Source of the DNA: a virus
Strand: one strand, 5' to 3'
IMG/VR virus record: IMGVR_UViG_3300045988_023566
Coordinates: 1 to 30,639 of that record
Length of the DNA stretch: 30,639 bases
The notes beneath the pieces are model-generated. The model saw only the letters and a list, made by a program, of their open reading frames with translations. It made no database searches and had not been told where the DNA came from. Positions 366 to 7,015 of the stretch are shown here, piece after piece; within the stretch, counting starts at the first letter, position 1; each line of letters starts with the position of its first letter. A program made the position numbers and the translations under genes.

Positions 366-1190
366 TCAGTTGGTGGTGGTTTCGATGGTTTCGTTCAGTC
401 GGGTCTCGCCGAGTCGTCGGTGGAGGAGGGCCAAGCCTTTTCTGGTGATCTTGACGGTCGGGGCGAAAGCGAAGAAGCTGCCGTCTTTATGCTGTCCGTG
501 CGATCTTGATTCTACCAAGACTAGGTGTCCGGCTTTCACGCGTTCCGAGGCTGCCCACCATGTGCCGGCATGCCGGTATATCCAACCGTTCTGGTTGAGC
601 CATTCTCGCAATTCTTTCTCGCCGATGGGCGTGCCAGCGTTCGAGAGCAGTTTCGCGGCTTCCCTGACCAGTAGGGCGTCTGGTACGTTGGTGAAGTCAT
701 CCAATGCCTTCGCTTTCGGTTCCAGTTCCTTGATTTGGTTTTCGGCTTCGATTCGCTTGGTTCGTTCCTCTTTCAGGTCTGTTAGCAGTCTGATACCGAA
801 ATCAGGATCGGCAAGGATCTGGTCGATGGTGGCTTCGGTGGCGTAAATGCCATGCTTGCGGATGGACGGCAGTACCTCATGCGTCACCCAACGCTGGAAG
901 CGCCTAACGAATTTCTTCTGCTCGCCGTCGAGGTATCCAAGCTCGCGGTTGAGAATCGCACGGTAGAGGCCGGCCTCGGTGATAACCGTCATGTTCTGCA
1001 CGCCGCCACGGGGGGTGGGCACTTGGTGCATACCCTTTTCGTCGCGGTCAAGATTTCGAGCCATGTCTTTCGCGCTTCCATATCCGAGAATCTTGGCGAT
1101 GTCGGATGCGACGAACATCACTTCGTCGCCATCGGCCAGTGCCCTGACCTGGTTGTTTTCAAACTCGAATGGTTGGATTTCGGTATTCAT
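366..1190 (-). CDS. Phage antirepressor, Bro-N domain plus KilAC/ANT-type C-terminal domain (paralog 2)
   Basis: 274-aa ORF. The N-terminus (FEFENNQVRALADGDEVMFVASDIAKILGY) matches the Bro-N pattern. The C-terminus (LDDFTNVPDALLVREAAKLL...GWIY) matches the KilAC antirepressor pattern. The C-terminal half is very similar to ORF 1207..1989. Confidence 0.8.
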   Translation of the reverse strand: MNTEIQPFEFENNQVRALADGDEVMFVASDIAKILGYGSAKDMARNLDRDEKGMHQVPTPRGGVQNMTVITEAGLYRAILNRELGYLDGEQKKFVRRFQRWVTHEVLPSIRKHGIYATEATIDQILADPDFGIRLLTDLKEERTKRIEAENQIKELEPKAKALDDFTNVPDALLVREAAKLLSNAGTPIGEKELREWLNQNGWIYRHAGTWWAASERVKAGHLVLVESRSHGQHKDGSFFAFAPTVKITRKGLALLHRRLGETRLNETIETTTN

Positions 1191-1206: not shown

Positions 1207-1989
1207 TCAGTGGAGGGTGTTTTCGAAAGTCTCGTTCAGGCGGGTTTCGCCGAGACGCTGGTGGAGTAGCGATAGGCCTTTGCGGGTGATTCGTACGGTC
1301 GGGGGGAAAGCGAATTTCGTGCCGTCTGCTTTGGTGCCGTGTTTTGTGGACATGACCATTACGAGGTGGCCGGCCGTGCAGTGTTTCGCTGTGGCGTGCC
1401 ATGAGCCATTGGATTTGTAGATCCAGTCGTTGGCTGTCATCCATTCGCGCAGTTGGTTTTCGCTGATTGGCGTGCCTGCGTTGGAGAGGATTTTGGCGGC
1501 GTCGCGGACGAGGAGTCGGTCTTCCACGTTGGTGAAATCGTCTAGGGCTTTGGCTTTCGGTTCCAGTGCCTTGACTTTTTCCTGCTCTTCCTTCAGCTTG
1601 GTTGCGAGTTGGATAAGGAAGTCCGGGCTGGTAAGGGCCTTGTTGATGGTCTGTTGGGTCATGTATGCGCCATGCTTGCGGATGGTGGGGAGCACCTCGT
1701 GAGTTACCCAACGCTGGAACTCGTGGGCCTCCGGCTTACGGGAACGCATGATCAGCTTGTATAATCCCGGCTCGCTGATGAAAACCGGCGCTTTACCGCC
1801 GTTCTGGGCAATATCCGTACTACGGACATTGGTGATTTCGTCTTCGTCGAGGTATTCGCGAAGATGGTTAGTGCCGGTGCCGAGGATGTTGCACACATCC
1901 TGTCCTGAGAACCATGGTTCGCCAGTATTGTCTGTCAGGGTGCGCAGCGATGTGGCGTTGAAGTCGAATGTTTGGATTTCGGCGTTCAT
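1207..1989 (-). CDS. Phage antirepressor, Bro-N plus KilAC/ANT-type domain (paralog 1)
   Basis: 260-aa ORF. N-terminus FDFNATSLRTLTDNTGEPWFSGQDVCNILG (Bro-N). C-terminus LDDFTNVEDRLLVRDAAKILSNAGTPISENQLREWM...TVRITRKGLSLLHQRLGETRLNE is nearly collinear with the downstream paralog. Confidence 0.8.
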   Translation of the reverse strand: MNAEIQTFDFNATSLRTLTDNTGEPWFSGQDVCNILGTGTNHLREYLDEDEITNVRSTDIAQNGGKAPVFISEPGLYKLIMRSRKPEAHEFQRWVTHEVLPTIRKHGAYMTQQTINKALTSPDFLIQLATKLKEEQEKVKALEPKAKALDDFTNVEDRLLVRDAAKILSNAGTPISENQLREWMTANDWIYKSNGSWHATAKHCTAGHLVMVMSTKHGTKADGTKFAFPPTVRITRKGLSLLHQRLGETRLNETFENTLH

Positions 1990-2929: not shown

Positions 2930-3340
2930 ATGGAAATCATGCTGGACAACGGAGCGTACAAACCGTCACGAGGCCACGAGACCGACGCAGGGCTTGATCT
3001 GCGTACGCCAAAGGACGTGACGGTACCGGCGTACGGAAGCGCGATAGTCGATACTGGCGTGCACGTGGCATTGCCGCATGGATGCGCTGGACTGCTCGTC
3101 AGCAAGAGCGGACTCAACGTCAGGCACGACATCACGAGCACCGGACTCATCGACGAAGGTTATACCGGGAGCATCGTGGTCAAGCTCTACAATCACGGCG
3201 GCGGGGATTACCAGCTTGCGGCCGGAGACAAGATCACGCAGCTGGTCGTGTTCCCGGTGGTCCGCGAGTCATTGGAGCAGGTGTCTGCGTTCAATGCGAC
3301 GGAACGTGGCGACAACGGTTTCGGAAGCACCGGACGGTAA
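2930..3340 (+). CDS. dut: dUTP diphosphatase (trimeric dUTPase)
   Basis: SD aaaggaggttctaaATG. dUTPase motifs are present: AGLDL, SKSGL, GLIDEGYTG, and RGDNGFGSTG at the C-terminus. Confidence 0.92.
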   Translation: MEIMLDNGAYKPSRGHETDAGLDLRTPKDVTVPAYGSAIVDTGVHVALPHGCAGLLVSKSGLNVRHDITSTGLIDEGYTGSIVVKLYNHGGGDYQLAAGDKITQLVVFPVVRESLEQVSAFNATERGDNGFGSTGR

Positions 3341-3343
3341 GCC

Positions 3344-3679
3344 ATGTGGAACGGACGGAGCAAATATCATGCCAAGAAGACGACCGTGGACGGCATTACC
3401 TTCGATTCGAAGCGTGAGGCCGACAGATACACGGTCTTGAAGCGAATGGAGCAGGAAGGAGCCATAGAAGGCCTCAGGAGGCAGGTGCGCTACGAGCTCA
3501 TCCCGTCCTTCGACGTGGATGGCAAGCACTACAGGCCCGTCTATTATGTGGCTGACTTCGTCTACCGTGAGGATGGCCATGAGGTCGTCGAAGACGTCAA
3601 AGGCATGAGGACCGACGTGTACCGACTCAAGAGCAAGCTCTTCGCACGACGGTACGGCAAGTTCATCAAGGAGACGTGA
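3344..3679 (+). CDS. DUF1064-family protein (PD-(D/E)XK-like phage protein)
   Basis: GRSKYHAKKTTVDGITFDSKREADRYTVL...YYVADFVYREDGHEVVEDVKGMRTDVYRLKSKLF matches the characteristic DUF1064 pattern (KY.a.k....G..FdSk.Ea..y..L; aDF.y...g...veDvKG..t..y.lK). Confidence 0.8.
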   Translation: MWNGRSKYHAKKTTVDGITFDSKREADRYTVLKRMEQEGAIEGLRRQVRYELIPSFDVDGKHYRPVYYVADFVYREDGHEVVEDVKGMRTDVYRLKSKLFARRYGKFIKET

Positions 3680-3698
3680 CGGCCTAAGGAACGGGCAT

Positions 3699-3746
3699 GG
3701 CCCCGGTTGGTCTAGGGAGGAATCCCGGACCGGCCGGGGCCTTTTC
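3699..3746 (+). terminator. Rho-independent terminator after the dut-DUF1064 unit
   Basis: A long imperfect hairpin: GGCCCCGG..GGTC..GGGA-ggaa-TCCC..GACC..CCGGGGCC (3699-3741), followed by TTTTCG. Confidence 0.75.
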
Positions 3747-3793
3747 GTTGGCGTCGACAAAAAGGCAGGAGAGGCAGAAAAGCAAGCCAGCCT

Positions 3794-3876
3794 CAGTATT
3801 CAGGTATCAACCCTCAATACCTAGGTATCGACCCCCCAATACCTAGGTATCGACCCCCAGTACATAGGTATCGAGC
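3794..3876. repeat. Iteron family A: four tandem 21-22-bp repeats (cAATACCTAGGTATCGACCCC)
   Basis: Copies at 3794-3814, 3815-3836, 3837-3857 and 3858-3876. The two middle copies are identical apart from one extra C in the 3' C-run and contain the perfect 10-bp palindrome TACCTAGGTA. The outer copies are degenerate (cAGTATTCAGGTATCAACCCT and cAGTACATAGGTATCGAGC). Confidence 0.9.
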
Positions 3877-3878
3877 AA

Positions 3879-3933
3879 AGACCCTTCTACTAGACCCTTC
3901 TACTAGAAGATCCTTCTACTAGACCCTTCTAAA
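3879..3933. repeat. Iteron family B: four 13-bp direct repeats (AGACCCTTCTACT)
   Basis: 3879-3891 and 3892-3904 are identical. 3908-3920 is AGATCCTTCTACT and 3921-3933 is AGACCCTTCTAAA. Periods are 13, 16 and 13 bp. Confidence 0.9.
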
Positions 3934-3937
3934 TAAT

Positions 3938-3957
3938 GCGGCTCCGCGGGGAGCCGC
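3938..3957. other. Perfect 8-bp GC-rich hairpin GCGGCTCC-gcgg-GGAGCCGC
   Basis: Read directly; it sits between iteron family B and the first D element. Confidence 0.7.
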
Positions 3958-4033
3958 GTTGCACTCCCGAGTGGAGCTAATCCCAATCCCAGGGGATTCG
4001 GAGCCTAGACCGATCGGAGCTGGGTCTCGGTGG

Positions 4034-4116
4034 CTTCGGTGACCGAGGCATTGGGCCATGGGATCTGACCTGATGTCTTCCAGGCTTCTTCCATGGCTCT
4101 GAGCAGAGGAGGAGGA
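4034..4116 (+). repeat. D1: first copy of a roughly 80-nt imperfect direct repeat containing a CCATGG-centred 11-bp stem (candidate structured RNA or DNA element)
   Basis: cttcggtgaccgaggcattgggccatgggatc...ttccatggctctgagcagaggaggagga. The 5' arm GGGCCATGGGA (4053-4063) pairs with TTCCATGGCTC (4089-4099). It is about 90% identical to D2 outside the loop. Confidence 0.7.
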
Positions 4117-4170
4117 ATAGGGTGGAGTCATCGGGAGCTCTTTCAACCCCCCCTACTGAGTGATAAGCCT

Positions 4171-4253
4171 ACCCTCAAAATGAGGGTGCCAACTCTCAAA
4201 ATGAGGGTGGCCAACACTCAAAATGAGTGTTAGCTAAACCTCAAAATGAGGAC
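4171..4253. repeat. Iteron family C: four copies of the palindromic core CTCAAAATGAG spaced 21-23 bp apart
   Basis: Cores start at 4174, 4195, 4217 and 4240. Copy 1 extends to ACCCTCA-AAA-TGAGGGT and copy 3 to CACTCA-AAA-TGAGTG. Confidence 0.9.
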
Positions 4254-4375
4254 TCATATATATAGCTCTATAGGGATAGGTAGATACTCTAGTTAGATAG
4301 AGATAAGAGAGAGAAAGAAAGATAAATCTTTCTTTCCAAAGAGAGAGAAACCGAAACCAGTCTTCCAAATCAATC
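4254..4375. other. AT-rich block with a purine/pyrimidine mirror tract and a perfect 10-bp inverted repeat (candidate DNA-unwinding element)
   Basis: catatatatagctctatagggataggtagatactctagttagatagagataagagagagaaagaaagataaatctttctttcc... GAAAGAAAGA (4313-4322), loop taaa, TCTTTCTTTC (4327-4336). This looks like the most AT-rich stretch of the window and is flanked by D1/C iterons and D2. Confidence 0.6.
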
Positions 4376-4383
4376 CTTGGACA

Positions 4384-4464
4384 CTTCGGTGACTGAGGCA
4401 TTGAGCCATGGGATCCTCTCGATACTGTCCACGCTCCTTCCATGGCTCTAAGCATCGAGGAGGA
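4384..4464 (+). repeat. D2: second copy of the roughly 80-nt hairpin element
   Basis: cttcggtgactgaggcattgagccatgggatc...ttccatggctctaagcatcgaggagga. The stem is GAGCCATGGGA (4403-4413) with TTCCATGGCTC (4438-4448). It is followed by a second perfect stem, AGCATCGA (4451-4458) with TCGATGCT (4478-4485). Confidence 0.7.
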
Positions 4465-4639
4465 TACGGTCTTGGCTTCGATGCTGCCCTTCGGGCCTTG
4501 GTCCCGGTTCCCGGACTGAATGGGCAGGGAGGAGAGTTGGTCTGTGCTTGGCTTGGGTGGTTCTCTCGCCGCTTGGCGTTCTCGATGCTTTTCGTTGCTG
4601 TTTTGGGCTGGAATGTCGCTTTCGTGCGTAAAGGCCTTT

Positions 4640-4695
4640 TTGACGGGCTGTCGTGGGTGGACCTTGACGAGTTATCGTGTTTGACGGGAAAATCG
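4640..4695 (+). repeat. Three TTGACGRG-N3/4-TCG repeats within a local G+T-rich island
   Basis: TTGACGGGctgTCG (4640), TTGACGAGttaTCG (4664) and TTGACGGGaaaaTCG (4681). The surrounding 4500-4760 region is G/T-rich on the + strand, unlike its flanks. Confidence 0.6.
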
Positions 4696-4820
4696 GTTTG
4701 AGGGGCCTTTACGTGCGTTCTGGAGGCATGTGCGGTAAAAAGCATGCGGGAGGGATGCTGTAGATGAGTGAACGAGCCGTGCCGGACCGTCCGCCTTCCA
4801 CGCTTTTCAAGCTTGTGTGC

Positions 4821-4826
4821 TATACT
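4821..4826 (+). promoter_or_regulatory. Candidate -10 box TATACT for gene 4861..5106
   Basis: cttgtgtgcTATACTtatagc, about 35 nt upstream of the ATG. No clear -35 was seen. Confidence 0.4.
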
Positions 4827-4860
4827 TATAGCAACGCTAAAACCAAGAAAGGAACCAACA

Positions 4861-5106
4861 ATGAGCGTTTACGAAGCCATCGGCAATCTCCTCGTCGAAC
4901 GGTACGGAGTCCACTTCAGCGAGGAAGGCGAACAGAAATCCCGCAAGTTCTTTGCCGGCCTGTGCGCGAAGTTCAGCGAAGAGGAAGTACTCGAAGCATG
5001 GAAGACCGCATGCGGGAAGTACGACAATCCGACTACCGCGCTCTCGAAGCTCGGCGGCATTCTCTACAATCGCAGTCTCTTCAGCTCGTTCATTGAGAAA
5101 AATTAA
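4861..5106 (+). CDS. Hypothetical protein (81 aa)
   Basis: SD aagaaaggaaccaacaATG. MSVYEAIGNLLVERYGVHFSEEGEQKSRKFF... The track ORF 4768..5106 is in the same frame, but the internal start has the SD. Codon usage is C/A-ending like neighbouring genes. Confidence 0.65.
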   Translation: MSVYEAIGNLLVERYGVHFSEEGEQKSRKFFAGLCAKFSEEEVLEAWKTACGKYDNPTTALSKLGGILYNRSLFSSFIEKN

Positions 5107-5115
5107 AAAAACATC

Positions 5116-5144
5116 GGCGTGTCGTCCAAAAAACGTGATACACT
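5116..5144 (+). promoter_or_regulatory. Candidate promoter P1: GGCGTGTC motif plus extended -10 TGATACACT
   Basis: GGCGTGTC at 5116-5123 and TGaTACACT at 5136-5144, upstream of the replication genes. Confidence 0.5.
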
Positions 5145-5206
5145 AGAGACATACGCCATGTGAGATACCCCTACCGCTCATGTGGAGGATGTCAATCACA
5201 TGGCAT

Positions 5207-5277
5207 GAATCCCATTGATTGCTACCGGGGTAGGGCCGGTAGCAGTCGGTGGGATTCACTTTTTCCCGAAGGAAAAA
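5207..5277 (+). promoter_or_regulatory. Structured leader of the replication gene: nested 8+8-bp hairpin, T5 run, then an SD-sequestering hairpin
   Basis: GAATCCCA (5207-5214) pairs with TGGGATTC (5250-5257). Nested inside, GCTACCGG (5221-5228) pairs with CCGGTAGC (5236-5243). These are followed by acTTTTT. Then TTTTTCC (5260-5266), loop cgaa, GGAAAAA (5271-5277), which overlaps the SD gaaggaaaaa of ATG 5282. Confidence 0.55.
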
Positions 5278-5281
5278 CATC

Positions 5282-6037
5282 ATGTCCACAGTAAACGACA
5301 ACAACTTCGTCACGATCCAAGGCTGGATGCGTACCAAGCTCAACCTCAAAGGCAACGAACTACTCGCCTACGCCGTCATCTACGGCTTCTCACAGACGGA
5401 CGGTGCCAAATTCACCGGCTCCAGAAAATACCTCGCCGAGTGGTGCGGATGTTCCATGGCCACGATCGACAGAACACTCAACTCCCTCGTCGGCAAAGGT
5501 CTCATCTCAAGGACCTCATACATCACAAAGCACGGCTACCGCGCCGTTGAATACGCAGCCATGGGTCCGACCCACACCGACGAACCCTCCGACACGAAAC
5601 CCCGAACCGCGGACACGGACGACCCACAAACGCCAGCCGACGAACCCCAGCCGCTCCTCGACGAGCCGCAAGCCCCCGCACACCCGAAGGAACCCGACCC
5701 CACCGAAGAAGTCGTAGACCACCTCAACCAGCGTGCCGGCACCAACTACAAGGCCACCACCGCAAGCACACGCAAACTCATCAATGCACGGCTCAAGGAA
5801 GGCTTCACCGTCGACGAAATCAAGACCGTCATCGACAAGAAATGCGCCGACTGGCTCAACAACCGCGACATGGCCAAATACCTCCGCCCCGAAACCCTTT
5901 TCGGTCCGAAATTCGAAGGCTACCTCAACGCCAAGTCAATGCCACAAAACAACCCGAACAACACGACCTCCAACTATTCACCGTACTGCCCGCCAGTACC
6001 TGAAGGTACCGAACCAAGCTGCACGGTCGGATGGTGA
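5282..6037 (+). CDS. Replication initiator / replisome organizer (N-terminal wHTH, Pro/Asp/Glu-rich linker, conserved phage C-terminal DnaD-like domain)
   Basis: The N-terminus FVTIQGWMRTKLNLKGNELLAYAVIYGFSQ...SRKYLAEWCGCSMATIDRTLNSLVGKGLISR is the typical HTH of phage replication proteins. The C-terminus EVVDHLNQRAGTNYKATTASTRKLINARLKEGFTVDEIKTVIDKKCADWLNNRDMAKYLRPETLFGPKFEGYLN matches the 'conserved phage C-terminus' pattern. Start 5282 is preferred over the track start 5249 because of the SD. Confidence 0.8.
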   Translation: MSTVNDNNFVTIQGWMRTKLNLKGNELLAYAVIYGFSQTDGAKFTGSRKYLAEWCGCSMATIDRTLNSLVGKGLISRTSYITKHGYRAVEYAAMGPTHTDEPSDTKPRTADTDDPQTPADEPQPLLDEPQAPAHPKEPDPTEEVVDHLNQRAGTNYKATTASTRKLINARLKEGFTVDEIKTVIDKKCADWLNNRDMAKYLRPETLFGPKFEGYLNAKSMPQNNPNNTTSNYSPYCPPVPEGTEPSCTVGW

Positions 6038-6169: not shown

Positions 6170-7015
6170 ATGGAAACCAACATCATCGAAACCATAGCCC
6201 GCAAGGCAAGCCAAGACAGCCACTACGAAGAAGGCGACTACCTCAACGAGGACGGCCTCCTCATGTGCGGCAAATGCCACACCCCAAAACAATGCCGCTT
6301 CATCGCCAAATGGGACAGCAAAGAGAAGAAACCGTACACGCCCTGCGACTGCGCACGCGAACGCCGGAAAACCGAAGAACAAGCCCGACGAGAACAAGAC
6401 ATGCGGATCGAAGTCCAACGTCTCAGAAAACTAGGCTTCCCCGACGCAGAAATGGCCAACTGGACATTCACCAACGACGACAGAACGAACAAGAACGCAT
6501 CCGACATCGCACACCGATACGTCAACAATTTCACGGAAATGAAAAAACACGGCAAAGGATTACTATTCCACGGCCCCGTCGGCAGCGGCAAAACGTTCCT
6601 CGCGGCAGCCATCGCAAACGAACTCATCAACCAAGGCCACCCATGCATGGTGACCAACTTCGCCCGAATCACGAACACGATTCAAGGAATGTTCGAAGGC
6701 AAGCAAAGATACCTCGACGACTTCAACCGACTGGATCTGCTGGTCATCGACGATTTAAACGCGGAACGCAACACGTCTTTCATGAACGAAATGATTTTCA
6801 ACATCATCGACTCGAGGTATCGGAGTGGGAAACCGCTCATCATCACGACCAACCTCTCGAAGGAAGAATTAATAGGCCAGACGGACACTTGCAGACAGCG
6901 CATCTACAGTCGACTGGTTGAAATGTGCTTCCCAGTAGAAGTCAATAACACGGATAGAAGAAAAAGAAAAGCCCGTAACGATTCAGAAGACTTGAGGAAA
7001 CTCCTCTATCTGTGA
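6170..7015 (+). CDS. DnaC/IstB-like AAA+ helicase loader
   Basis: Walker A GPVGSGKTFLAAAIANEL, Walker B LDLLVIDDL, then RYRSGKPLIITTN. An N-terminal Cys-rich segment (CGKCH...PCDC) is present. Confidence 0.88.
   Translation: METNIIETIARKASQDSHYEEGDYLNEDGLLMCGKCHTPKQCRFIAKWDSKEKKPYTPCDCARERRKTEEQARREQDMRIEVQRLRKLGFPDAEMANWTFTNDDRTNKNASDIAHRYVNNFTEMKKHGKGLLFHGPVGSGKTFLAAAIANELINQGHPCMVTNFARITNTIQGMFEGKQRYLDDFNRLDLLVIDDLNAERNTSFMNEMIFNIIDSRYRSGKPLIITTNLSKEELIGQTDTCRQRIYSRLVEMCFPVEVNNTDRRKRKARNDSEDLRKLLYL

What the first reader, a model, noticed from the sequence alone, without database searches (positions are those of the whole stretch)
4034..4464. Two copies of a roughly 80-nt hairpin element (D1, D2) bracketing the C iterons and the AT-rich block
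D1 (4034-4116) and D2 (4384-4464) share nearly identical flanks. These are cttcggtgacYgaggcattgRgccatgggatc and ttccatggctctRagca, followed by a GAGGAGGA purine run. Their roughly 25-nt loops differ almost completely and differ in length by 1 nt. Each folds into an 11-bp stem built on two CCATGG sites. At one stem position D1 has G opposite T where D2 has A opposite T. That is tolerated as G-U only if a + strand RNA (or the + DNA strand) folds. Short minus-strand ORFs cross both copies, but the loop indel puts the conserved flanks in different frames, which argues against coding. The symmetric placement around the putative unwinding element is unusual.
Basis: seen in the sequence. Interest (0 to 1): 0.65.

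Follow-up and report, generated by a model that had tools for sequence, protein, structure and literature searches.

The report
Repeated hairpin module closing phage origin cassettes
The two hairpin copies are real, but they mark the ends of two replication-origin cassettes that recombination between related gut phages placed side by side; nothing found here shows that they are a structured RNA.

Summary
D1 (4016-4122) and D2 (4366-4470) are the only two copies in the window. Each has an 11-bp stem built on two CCATGG sites.

- **Family:** 37 distinct copies occur in about 30 related 29-30 kb human-gut phage genomes.
- **Position:** D always lies about 130-250 nt downstream of an iteron array. 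It is the 5' end of a roughly 420-nt noncoding block upstream of the genes orf81, Rep (SPP1 G38P family, PF09524) and a DnaC-like loader.
- **Iterons track the initiator:** iteron sequence changes with the type of the Rep N-terminal domain. D and the block stay constant.
- **Two cassettes:** the window holds a foreign, orphan cassette (A+B iterons and D1) and the cognate one (C iterons, AT-rich block and D2).
- **Not a recent duplication:** D1 is 89% identical to a copy in another genome but only 75% identical to D2, so the two were joined by recombination.
- **Selection:** D (80%) and the block (84%) are more conserved than 4-fold sites of neighbouring genes (67%). The 9-bp arms are 96-98% identical.
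- **No covariation:** the core stem shows no compensatory change, so the arms are read by sequence.
- **The G.T in D1:** it fits decay of rep-distal copies (Fisher p = 0.014).

An RNA role is unproven but not excluded. The most likely role is a DNA-level architectural element of a theta origin.

The parts
3699..3749 (+). Intrinsic terminator ending the dUTPase-DUF1064 operon. It forms the left border of the non-coding origin region.
   Evidence: Inverted repeat 3699-3712/3728-3741 and a terminator-scan hit followed by a T run. Conserved in relatives.
3796..3876 (.). A iterons (ATACCTAGGTATCGA, period 21-22). These are the iterons of a foreign Rep type (RepN3) and are orphans here.
   Evidence: The same iterons lie at the same distance from D in the RepN3 genomes L018, L065 and L066.
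3878..3931 (.). B repeats (GACCCTTCTACTAGA, period 13-16). They are the spacer module of the RepN3-type cassette.
   Evidence: They co-occur with A iterons in RepN3 genomes.
3938..3957 (-). GC-rich hairpin GCGGCTCC-GCGG-GGAGCCGC of the 'G-type' pre-D module. It looks like a terminator on the minus strand.
   Evidence: Terminator scan. DNA fold z = -4.1. Conserved in 18 or more copies; L062 has an unrelated hairpin at the same place.
3979..3998 (.). Second small hairpin of the G-type pre-D module (AATCCC...GGGATT).
   Evidence: Read from the sequence. Conserved as CCAATCCC-N8-GGGATTGG in relatives.
4016..4122 (+). D1, the rep-distal (orphan) copy of the D module. Arms are 4053-4063 and 4089-4099; the loop is type 1.
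   Evidence: Covariance model hit of 103 bits. It is 89% identical to L017a and 75% to D2. G.T at pair 42/89.
4167..4253 (.). C iterons (four copies of CTCAAAATGAG, period 21-23). They are cognate to the window's Rep type (RepN2).
   Evidence: Present in 9 of 10 RepN2 genomes at -200 to -133 from D.
4254..4345 (.). AT-rich block, the putative DNA unwinding element, containing hairpin 4313-4336.
   Evidence: GC falls to 0.33. Hairpin z = -3.6. Apex compensatory change in L003 and L013.
4366..4470 (+). D2, the rep-proximal copy of the D module. Arms are 4403-4413 and 4438-4448; the loop is type 2.
   Evidence: Covariance model hit of 96.7 bits. It is 85% identical to L006.
4471..4785 (+). Constant non-coding block. 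It is G+T-rich and A-poor on the + strand. It includes hairpin 4451-4460/4476-4485, the C(UUCG)G hairpin 4486-4496 and the inverted repeat CGTAAAGGCC/GGCCTTTACG (4631-4640/4704-4713).
   Evidence: Alignment A2 of 26 genomes. It is 84% identical against 67% at 4-fold sites. Skew. Compensatory changes in L062 and L009.
4818..4826 (+). Extended -10 promoter (TGC TATACT) of the orf81-Rep-DnaC operon.
   Evidence: Conserved as TGnTAYACT about 35 nt upstream of the orf81 ATG. This is an inference from the consensus.
4861..5106 (+). orf81, an 81-aa protein of unknown function that is highly conserved.
   Evidence: Alignment A3 has 90% mean column identity. No family or fold match.
5249..6037 (+). Rep, a replisome organizer with an HTH_36 N-terminal domain and a Phg_2220_C (PF09524) C-terminal domain.
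   Evidence: Pfam 7.9e-30 and PHROG 428. PF09524 is the family of SPP1 G38P (PMC5737612).
6170..7015 (+). DnaC/IstB-like helicase loader.
   Evidence: PHROG 50 at 7.9e-63 and Pfam IstB_IS21.

Best explanation
D is a conserved inverted-repeat module of about 105 nt. It closes each 'origin cassette' of an iteron-type theta replication origin in a family of roughly 30-kb human-gut siphoviruses. Their initiator is an SPP1-G38P-type replisome organizer that works with a DnaC-like loader.

**Cassette layout.** A cassette consists of about four 22-bp iterons, a spacer of about 100 nt, and D. The iterons are specific for the Rep N-terminal domain. The spacer is either an AT-rich unwinding block or B repeats plus a GC hairpin. 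After the last D comes a constant 330-nt block and then the promoter of orf81-Rep-DnaC.

**Why there are two copies (shown).**
- The window carries two cassettes in tandem. One is foreign and orphaned (A+B iterons and D1, as used by RepN3-type phages). The other is cognate (C iterons, AT block and D2).
- They were joined by recombination between diverged phages, not by a recent internal duplication.
- D is the shared homology at the junction. D1 x D2 recombination can delete the intervening cassette again.

**How D works (inferred).** The invariant 9-bp arms GAGCCATGG/CCATGGCTC are read by sequence, and their spacing varies from 27 to 29 nt. The most likely reading is therefore a hairpin or cruciform, extruded or bound once Rep has melted the adjacent region. 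It would serve as a fixed assembly or boundary site, independent of Rep type, for conserved factors such as the loader-helicase or a host protein. D1 would be a decaying relic of this function.
For: **Family and position.**
- There are 37 distinct copies, found only in this phage group.
- D lies at a constant distance from the iterons.
- Iteron type co-varies with the Rep N-terminal cluster: RepN2 with CTCAAAATGAG, RepN3 with ATACCTAGGTATCGA plus B repeats, RepN1 with GCCGCAAAATCA.
- D and the block occur with all three Rep types.

**Gene context.**
- Rep belongs to PF09524, the SPP1 G38P family. SPP1 oriL consists of iterons plus an adjacent AT-rich DUE.
- No primase, polymerase or integrase was found in the window. 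An Erf/YqaJ recombination module is present.

**Origin of the two copies.**
- D1 is 89% identical to L017a and 85% to L019 but only 75% to D2. D2 is 85% identical to L006.
- Tandem cassettes also occur in L004, L005, L017, L206 and L062.
- In the window, L004, L005 and L206 the C-iteron cassette, cognate to their RepN2-type Rep, is the rep-proximal one. L017 has the same layout, but L205 leaves its cognate cassette uncertain.
- L205 carries a hybrid D, with the 5' part of L017a and the 3' part of L017b, and lacks the C cassette.

**Selection and recognition.**
- D is 80.5% and the block 84.1% identical, against 66.7% at 4-fold sites, in 96-100% of 91 genome pairs.
- The arms are 96-98% identical against 72-75% for the loop and flanks. 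The core stem has no compensatory change.
- Rep-distal copies carry stem defects in 4 of 5 cases against 6 of 32 for proximal copies, p = 0.014.
Against: - No experiment shows that this region is an origin.
- Cassette 1 and the single-cassette G-type genomes lack an AT-rich block, so the position of the unwinding element is unclear there.
- L001 lacks the D core and the whole block, L002 lacks the block, and L015 has an internal deletion. D and the block may therefore be dispensable, or those contigs may be defective.
- L205 pairs a window-type Rep HTH with non-C iterons. This weakens a strict match between iterons and Rep, unless it is an assembly collapse.
- The strong G+T/A-poor strand asymmetry of the block, the G.T/A-T alternation at the two innermost stem pairs and the compensated C(UUCG)G hairpin are easier to explain by a single-stranded + strand species, RNA or DNA, than by duplex protein binding.
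- No binding protein was identified.
Confidence: 0.55

Rival explanations
1. D is the 5' hairpin of a structured + strand RNA of about 450 nt. The RNA would span D through the constant block and act as a leader, processing signal or regulator for the orf81-Rep-DnaC operon, or as an origin transcript or primer. D1 would be a duplicated 5' fragment of it.
For: - At the two innermost stem pairs G.T alternates with A-T (15 vs 19 and 18 vs 14 cells), and the core stem has 8 G.T against 3 A.C.
- In the helix GCATCGAGG/YYTCGATGC the varying positions are all G-C/G.U or A-U/G.U on the + strand.
- The C(UUCG)G hairpin 4486-4496 has two independent compensatory changes, in L062 and L009.
- The + strand consensus fold has 101 pairs at -84 kcal/mol, against 43 pairs at -38 kcal/mol on the - strand.
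- The block is under purifying selection and is non-coding.
Against: - The D stem shows no covariation beyond shuffles. Only 7 of 101 predicted pairs show any double change, and the covariation term is -1.8 kcal/mol.
- z-scores are -0.5 to -1.2.
- There is no Rfam match.
- No conserved sigma-70-type promoter lies upstream of or within the block. A strong terminator at 3699-3749 blocks read-through from the upstream operon.
- The orf81 promoter lies downstream of the block.
- The larger + strand fold is what G+U richness alone would give.
- Invariant arms point to sequence recognition rather than to a purely structural helix.
Confidence: 0.2
2. A leftward (minus-strand) non-coding RNA runs through the constant block and D and stops at the hairpin just left of D (4337-4312 for D2, 3957-3938 for D1). 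It would be an oop-like antisense or origin-proximal RNA. Its CCUCCUC stretch could pair with Shine-Dalgarno sequences.
For: - Both kinds of pre-D module carry a hairpin followed on the minus strand by a U- or pyrimidine-rich tail.
- The hairpin position is kept even where its sequence is replaced (L062) or compensated at the apex (L003, L013).
- The minus strand has the A>T, C>G composition of this phage's sense strands.
Against: - No leftward promoter was found, conserved or otherwise.
- On the minus strand the G.T positions of the D stem become A.C mismatches in about half the copies.
- The minus-strand consensus fold is poor.
- The U tails are weak.
Confidence: 0.1
3. D has no function of its own. 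It is only shared homology, a recombination scar or 'linker' between exchangeable modules, and the hairpin is incidental.
For: - D sits exactly at the border between the variable and the constant region.
- Hybrid and deleted forms exist (L205, L001, L002).
- The phage encodes Erf/YqaJ recombination functions.
Against: - D is more conserved than 4-fold sites in 96% of genome pairs.
- Conservation is concentrated in the two 9-bp arms, 96-98% against 72-75%.
- Rep-distal copies decay faster than proximal ones, which implies selection on the proximal copy.
Confidence: 0.07
4. D is part of a small protein-coding gene on either strand.
For: Open frames cross both copies (3919-4146, 4234-4455 and 4293-4745 on the - strand; 4408-4701 on the + strand).
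Against: - The two conserved flanks are in different frames in D1 and D2.
- Relatives differ by many 1-nt indels.
- No frame or start codon is conserved.
- The frames are open only because the + strand is A-poor.
Confidence: 0.02

Closest known systems
SPP1 oriL with the G38P replisome organizer (Bacillus phage SPP1)
   Same: The initiator belongs to the same Pfam family (PF09524). The origin has repeated initiator-binding boxes with an adjacent AT-rich DUE. A separate helicase loader is used, and the host supplies primase and polymerases (PMC5737612).
   Different: SPP1 oriL lies inside gene 38. Here the origin is intergenic, upstream of the operon. It also carries an inverted-repeat module (D) and a 330-nt constant block, which are not part of the description of oriL quoted. 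No phage helicase gene was found here.
Phage lambda ori (four 18-bp iterons joined to a 38-bp AT-rich region; O and P proteins)
   Same: Four iterons of about 20 bp, each with internal dyad symmetry, lie next to an AT-rich region (PMC3349717). From my own knowledge, not tested here: initiator N-terminal specificity co-varies with the iterons among lambdoid phages, and a palindrome lies beside the AT-rich region in lambda.
   Different: Lambda ori lies within the O gene, and the initiator family is unrelated. D has 9-11-bp arms separated by a loop of about 25 nt and is followed by a long constant block. Tandem heterologous origins are not a feature of lambda.
IncQ (RSF1010) oriV ssiA/ssiB single-strand initiation hairpins
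   Same: The order is iterons, then an AT-rich region, then conserved hairpins that act once the DNA is single-stranded (my own knowledge). The resemblance is in possible mechanism only.
   Different: ssiA and ssiB lie on opposite strands and are read by a plasmid-encoded primase. D1 and D2 lie on the same strand, belong to two different cassettes, and no phage primase is present.
Origin decoys: the lambda 'inhibition phenotype' (iterons plus oop on a plasmid) and lactococcal Per
   Same: Extra copies of iterons that are not used for the element's own replication can inhibit phages whose initiator binds them (PMC3349717; Per from my own knowledge). The orphan A+B cassette could act in this way.
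   Different: Here the extra iterons lie in a phage genome next to its own origin. No inhibitory effect has been tested.

Membership tests
   For the D stem across 37 copies, 0 of 9 core pairs show a Watson-Crick to Watson-Crick change, and the observed values equal the shuffles. For the whole block, 7 of 101 pairs show any double change. Only the 4-bp C(UUCG)G hairpin shows two compensatory changes.
   z = -0.54 and -1.01 for D1 and D2. z = -1.21 (+ strand) and -1.40 (- strand) for 4366-4790.
   No conserved sigma-70-like promoter on either strand. Terminator-like hairpins exist only for the minus strand. No expression data are available.
   Rfam 15 gives no hit at gathering threshold and only chance-level E-values.
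Iteron-type theta origin (SPP1 oriL / lambda ori kind) | Tandem direct repeats of about 20 bp spaced about two helical turns apart | tested here: met
   C iterons: four copies with period 21-23. A iterons: three copies with period 21-22. Arrays at the equivalent position occur in most relatives; no repeated 8-mer was detected in several of them (L007, L012, L013, L053, L059).
Iteron-type theta origin (SPP1 oriL / lambda ori kind) | Iteron sequence co-varies with the initiator's DNA-binding domain | tested here: met
   Three Rep N-terminal clusters go with three iteron types. The one exception is L205.
Iteron-type theta origin (SPP1 oriL / lambda ori kind) | Adjacent AT-rich DNA unwinding element | tested here: inconclusive
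   Met for cassette 2, where GC is 0.33 over 4250-4349. Not met for cassette 1 or for single-cassette G-type relatives.
Iteron-type theta origin (SPP1 oriL / lambda ori kind) | Linked initiator and helicase-loader genes | tested here: met
   Rep (PF09524) at 5249-6037 and the DnaC-like loader at 6170-7015.
Iteron-type theta origin (SPP1 oriL / lambda ori kind) | Supports initiator-dependent replication | not testable with these tools
   This needs a plasmid replication assay or in vitro reconstitution.
Single-strand initiation (ssi) or primosome-assembly hairpin | Strand-specific hairpin read by a cognate primase or PriA | tested here: inconclusive
   The hairpin folds on both strands at about -8 kcal/mol as DNA. 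There is a weak + strand bias, 8 G.T against 3 A.C. No phage primase gene was found.
Recent tandem duplication within this genome | The two copies are each other's closest relatives | tested here: not met
   D1 and D2 are 75% identical, whereas D1 is 89% identical to L017a and D2 is 85% identical to L006.

The most novel reading that the evidence does not exclude
The orphan cassette (A+B iterons and D1) is kept because it is useful. It would titrate or 'handcuff' the initiator of competing RepN3-type phages, as an origin decoy or incompatibility determinant, or let this genome be replicated by a co-infecting relative. In addition, D plus the G+T-rich constant block would act as a new single-stranded + strand element, a DNA initiation signal or an origin RNA, shared by all Rep types of this gut phage group.
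Probability: 0.2. Interest if true: 0.6.

Novelty: new variant of a known kind. Interest (0 to 1): 0.38.

Why it matters
This region gives a clear natural example of how phage replication origins are built from exchangeable parts. The specificity part (iterons together with the initiator N-terminus) is swapped between relatives. A constant part (D plus a 330-nt block and orf81) is kept.

Tandem heterologous origins in about one genome in six record those swaps and could affect competition between co-infecting gut phages. The constant part is under clear purifying selection and has no known function. It is a defined target for experiments on how G38P-type organizers assemble a replisome.

For annotation, the result is a caution. 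A conserved hairpin with G.T pairs next to an origin is not enough to call an RNA.

Tried and rejected
- **Nucleotide searches.** blastn of 3300-5300 against the phage and plasmid collections found no match. An exact 28-mer of the 5' flank had no match in viral or genome contigs.
- **Inverted-repeat pattern.** In genome contigs it gave 120 or more hits in unrelated bacteria. The D profile rejected all of them (best E about 0.003-0.01), so they are chance matches.
- **RNA annotation.** Rfam at gathering and E-value thresholds, on the window and 12 relatives, found nothing. tRNA and tmRNA searches found none.
- **Coding.** Rejected.
- **DnaA boxes.** None in the region, and counts in the window are at chance level.
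- **CCATGG avoidance or a restriction-modification link.** Rejected: 23 sites observed against 21.6 expected.
- **Promoter search.** A scan across 26 aligned relatives on both strands gave only one weak + strand candidate, present in 8 of 26.
- **orf81 as a candidate D-binding protein.** No Pfam, PHROG, NCBIfam or PDB sequence match. The AF2 model (pLDDT 86) is a five-helix protein with no Foldseek hit below E = 1.
- **Counting G.T against A.C in predicted helices as a strand test.** The + strand gives 141 vs 31 and the - strand 31 vs 19. I judged this confounded by G+T richness and by the way RNAalifold selects pairs.
- **cos/pac or attP readings.** Rejected on position: the terminase genes lie at 28.5-30.2 kb and no integrase was found.
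Full report
**1. Observation**

The region between the DUF1064 gene (3344-3679) and a small gene, orf81 (4861-5106), is 1.18 kb of non-coding DNA.

- A 19-mer from the flank occurs only there, against 0.06 expected by chance.
- A covariance model of the family finds exactly two copies in the 30.6-kb window, at 4016-4122 (103 bits) and 4366-4470 (96.7 bits), both on the + strand.
D1 pairs 4053-4063 with 4089-4099 around a 25-nt loop. D2 pairs 4403-4413 with 4438-4448 around a 24-nt loop.
- The folds are no more stable than shuffled sequence. RNA z-scores are -0.54 and -1.01; DNA z-scores are -1.4 and -2.7.

**2. Genome context**

The window is a small siphovirus-like genome.

- It has two Ant anti-repressors, an Xis-like HTH protein, dUTPase and DUF1064.
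- After the non-coding region come orf81, a Rep with HTH_36 and Phg_2220_C (PF09524) domains, and a DnaC-like loader.
- Further on are Erf and a YqaJ-like exonuclease, an HTH_3 regulator, and tail, head, portal and terminase genes.
- No integrase, primase or polymerase was found.
- PF09524 is the family of the SPP1 replisome organizer G38P. Its origin, oriL, consists of repeated G38P-binding boxes plus an adjacent AT-rich DUE (PMC5737612).
- The closest TerL in the phage collection is from Bifidobacterium phages, at 49% amino-acid identity. The related contigs come from human gut metagenomes.

**3. Relatives**

Searching with Rep, with the inverted-repeat pattern and with an orf81 alignment gave about 30 related 29-30 kb contigs. 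A profile search finds 37 distinct D copies in them and none elsewhere. The many pattern hits in bacterial genomes are chance matches.

The homology is about 105 nt long. The 'loops' fall into two recurring types: TCTGACCTGATGTCTTCGAGGC as in D1, and CC-TCTCGATGCTTTCGAGGC as in D2.

**4. What D belongs to**

In almost every relative the order is the same:

1. the terminator of the upstream operon;
2. an iteron array at -250 to -130 from D;
3. a spacer of about 100 nt;
4. D;
5. a conserved non-coding block of about 330 nt;
6. in some genomes, a 500-bp insert;
7. an extended -10 promoter (TGnTAYACT; window 4818-4826);
8. orf81, Rep and the DnaC-like gene.

The spacer comes in two forms. One is AT-rich with the hairpin GAAAGAAAGA-TAAA-TCTTTCTTTC. 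The other has B-like repeats, a GC hairpin and a second small hairpin.

Iteron sequence follows the Rep N-terminal cluster:

- RepN2, the window's type, goes with CTCAAAATGAG. This holds in 9 of 10 RepN2 genomes.
- RepN3 goes with ATACCTAGGTATCGA, or a variant of it, plus GACCCTTCTACTAGA.
- RepN1 goes with GCCGCAAAATCA and related repeats.

D, the block and orf81 (90% column identity) are shared by all three Rep types.

**5. Why there are two copies**

The window has two cassettes in tandem.

- Cassette 1 (3796-4122) has A and B repeats at the same distances from D1 as in RepN3 genomes.
- Cassette 2 (4167-4470) has C iterons and the AT block at the same distances from D2 as in every RepN2 genome.
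- The window's Rep is RepN2. Cassette 2 is therefore cognate and cassette 1 is an orphan.

D1 is 89% identical to a copy in L017 and 85% to L019 but only 75% to D2. D2 is 85% identical to L006. The copies are diverged alleles brought together by recombination, not a recent duplication.

L004, L005, L017, L206 and L062 also have two D copies, 336-388 nt apart. In every case where it could be checked, the C cassette is the rep-proximal one.

- L205, from an independent sample, has a single hybrid D. Its 5' part matches L017a and its 3' part L017b, and it lacks the C cassette. That is the expected product of D1 x D2 recombination, or possibly an assembly collapse.
- The junctions share the short sequence GAGCAARGARGAGG. 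It occurs at the end of the A array, at the 3' end of D and at the left end of the C cassette.

**6. Is D functional?**

- Across 91 genome pairs, D is 80.5% and the block 84.1% identical, against 66.7% at 4-fold degenerate sites of dUTPase, DUF1064 and orf81. The block exceeds the 4-fold value in 100% of pairs and D in 96%.
- Conservation is concentrated in the arms, 96-98% against 72-75% for the loop and flanks.
- The distance between the two CCATGG sites varies (27, 28 or 29 nt, and 32 nt once).
- Rep-distal copies carry non-Watson-Crick pairs in the 9-bp core in 4 of 5 cases, against 6 of 32 for proximal copies (p = 0.014).

**7. RNA or DNA?**

The coding reading is excluded. Relatives differ by 1-nt indels, no frame is conserved, and the frames are open only because the + strand is A-poor.

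The covariation test is negative for the D stem. It has 317 of 333 Watson-Crick cells, 8 G.T, 3 A.C and no compensatory change, and the observed values equal the shuffles. For the block it is weak, with 7 of 101 pairs showing any double change.

Other tests for RNA are also negative:

- There is no Rfam match.
- No conserved promoter lies on either strand.
- z-scores are about -1.2 to -1.4.

Hints for a single-stranded + strand species remain:

- the G.T/A-T alternation at the two innermost pairs;
- wobble-compatible variation in the helix 4451-4460/4476-4485;
- two compensatory changes in the C(UUCG)G hairpin 4486-4496;
- the G+T richness of the block.

Hints for a minus-strand RNA are the terminator-like hairpins left of each D.

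Invariant arms combined with variable spacing fit a hairpin or cruciform read by sequence better than two phased duplex sites.

**8. Verdict**

The two-copy arrangement is explained with good confidence: tandem origin cassettes, one cognate and one orphan, produced by recombination.

The role of D itself is inferred. Most likely it is a constant, DNA-level architectural or assembly element of a G38P-type theta origin. A + strand RNA or single-stranded-DNA role is the main alternative.

The finding is a new variant of a known kind, and its interest is moderate.

Noticed in passing
window 4486-4496: A small hairpin GCCC-UUCG-GGGC, with the canonical C(UUCG)G tetraloop on the + strand, is the only helix in the region with independent compensatory changes. 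L062 has GCAC..GTGC and L009 has GCCA..TGGC.
   Followed up: partly
window 3957-3938 and 4337-4312 (minus strand): Hairpins 50-80 nt left of each D are followed on the minus strand by U- or pyrimidine-rich tails, like terminators for a leftward transcript. L062 has an unrelated hairpin at the same position. No leftward promoter was found.
   Followed up: partly
L003, L009, L011, L012, L014, L018, L019, L008, L020 (e.g. L019 2720-3290): Many relatives carry a conserved insert of about 500 bp between the constant block and the orf81 promoter. The window lacks it. It contains no tRNA and has no Rfam match. Whether it is coding or RNA is unknown.
   Followed up: partly
L205 1984-2089; L001 3130-3160; L002 3388-3440; L015 3076-3090: Natural deletion forms exist. 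L205 has a hybrid D and no C cassette. L001 lacks the D core and the whole block. L002 lacks the block and the start of orf81. L015 has an 80-nt internal deletion. They could be real variants, defective genomes or assembly collapses across the repeats.
   Followed up: partly
window 4861-5106: orf81 is the most conserved gene of the module (90% column identity across genomes whose Rep proteins differ). It has no family or fold match. The AF2 model (pLDDT 86) is a five-helix protein.
   Followed up: partly
window 5249-6037 and 6170-7015; L017/L205, L018, L050 etc.: Rep is itself mosaic. There are three N-terminal types, and L017 and L205 carry a different C-terminal domain. The DnaC-like loader comes in two types, about 75-80% and about 48% identical to the window's.
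   Followed up: partly
window 366-1190 and 1207-1989 (minus strand): Two adjacent paralogous anti-repressor genes (Bro-N plus KilAC/ANT domains) lie next to an Xis-like HTH gene at 2068-2256. No integrase was detected anywhere in the 30.6-kb window.
   Followed up: no
window 4450-4750: The strand composition is extreme (AT skew down to -0.69, GC skew up to +0.41). The region is open in almost every frame on both strands, which produces spurious ORFs of 97-188 codons.
   Followed up: yes
window 4631-4640 and 4704-4713: A conserved 10-bp inverted repeat, CGTAAAGGCC / GGCCTTTACG, lies inside the constant block with its arms about 63 nt apart. It is nearly invariant in 26 genomes, and its function is unknown.
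   Followed up: no
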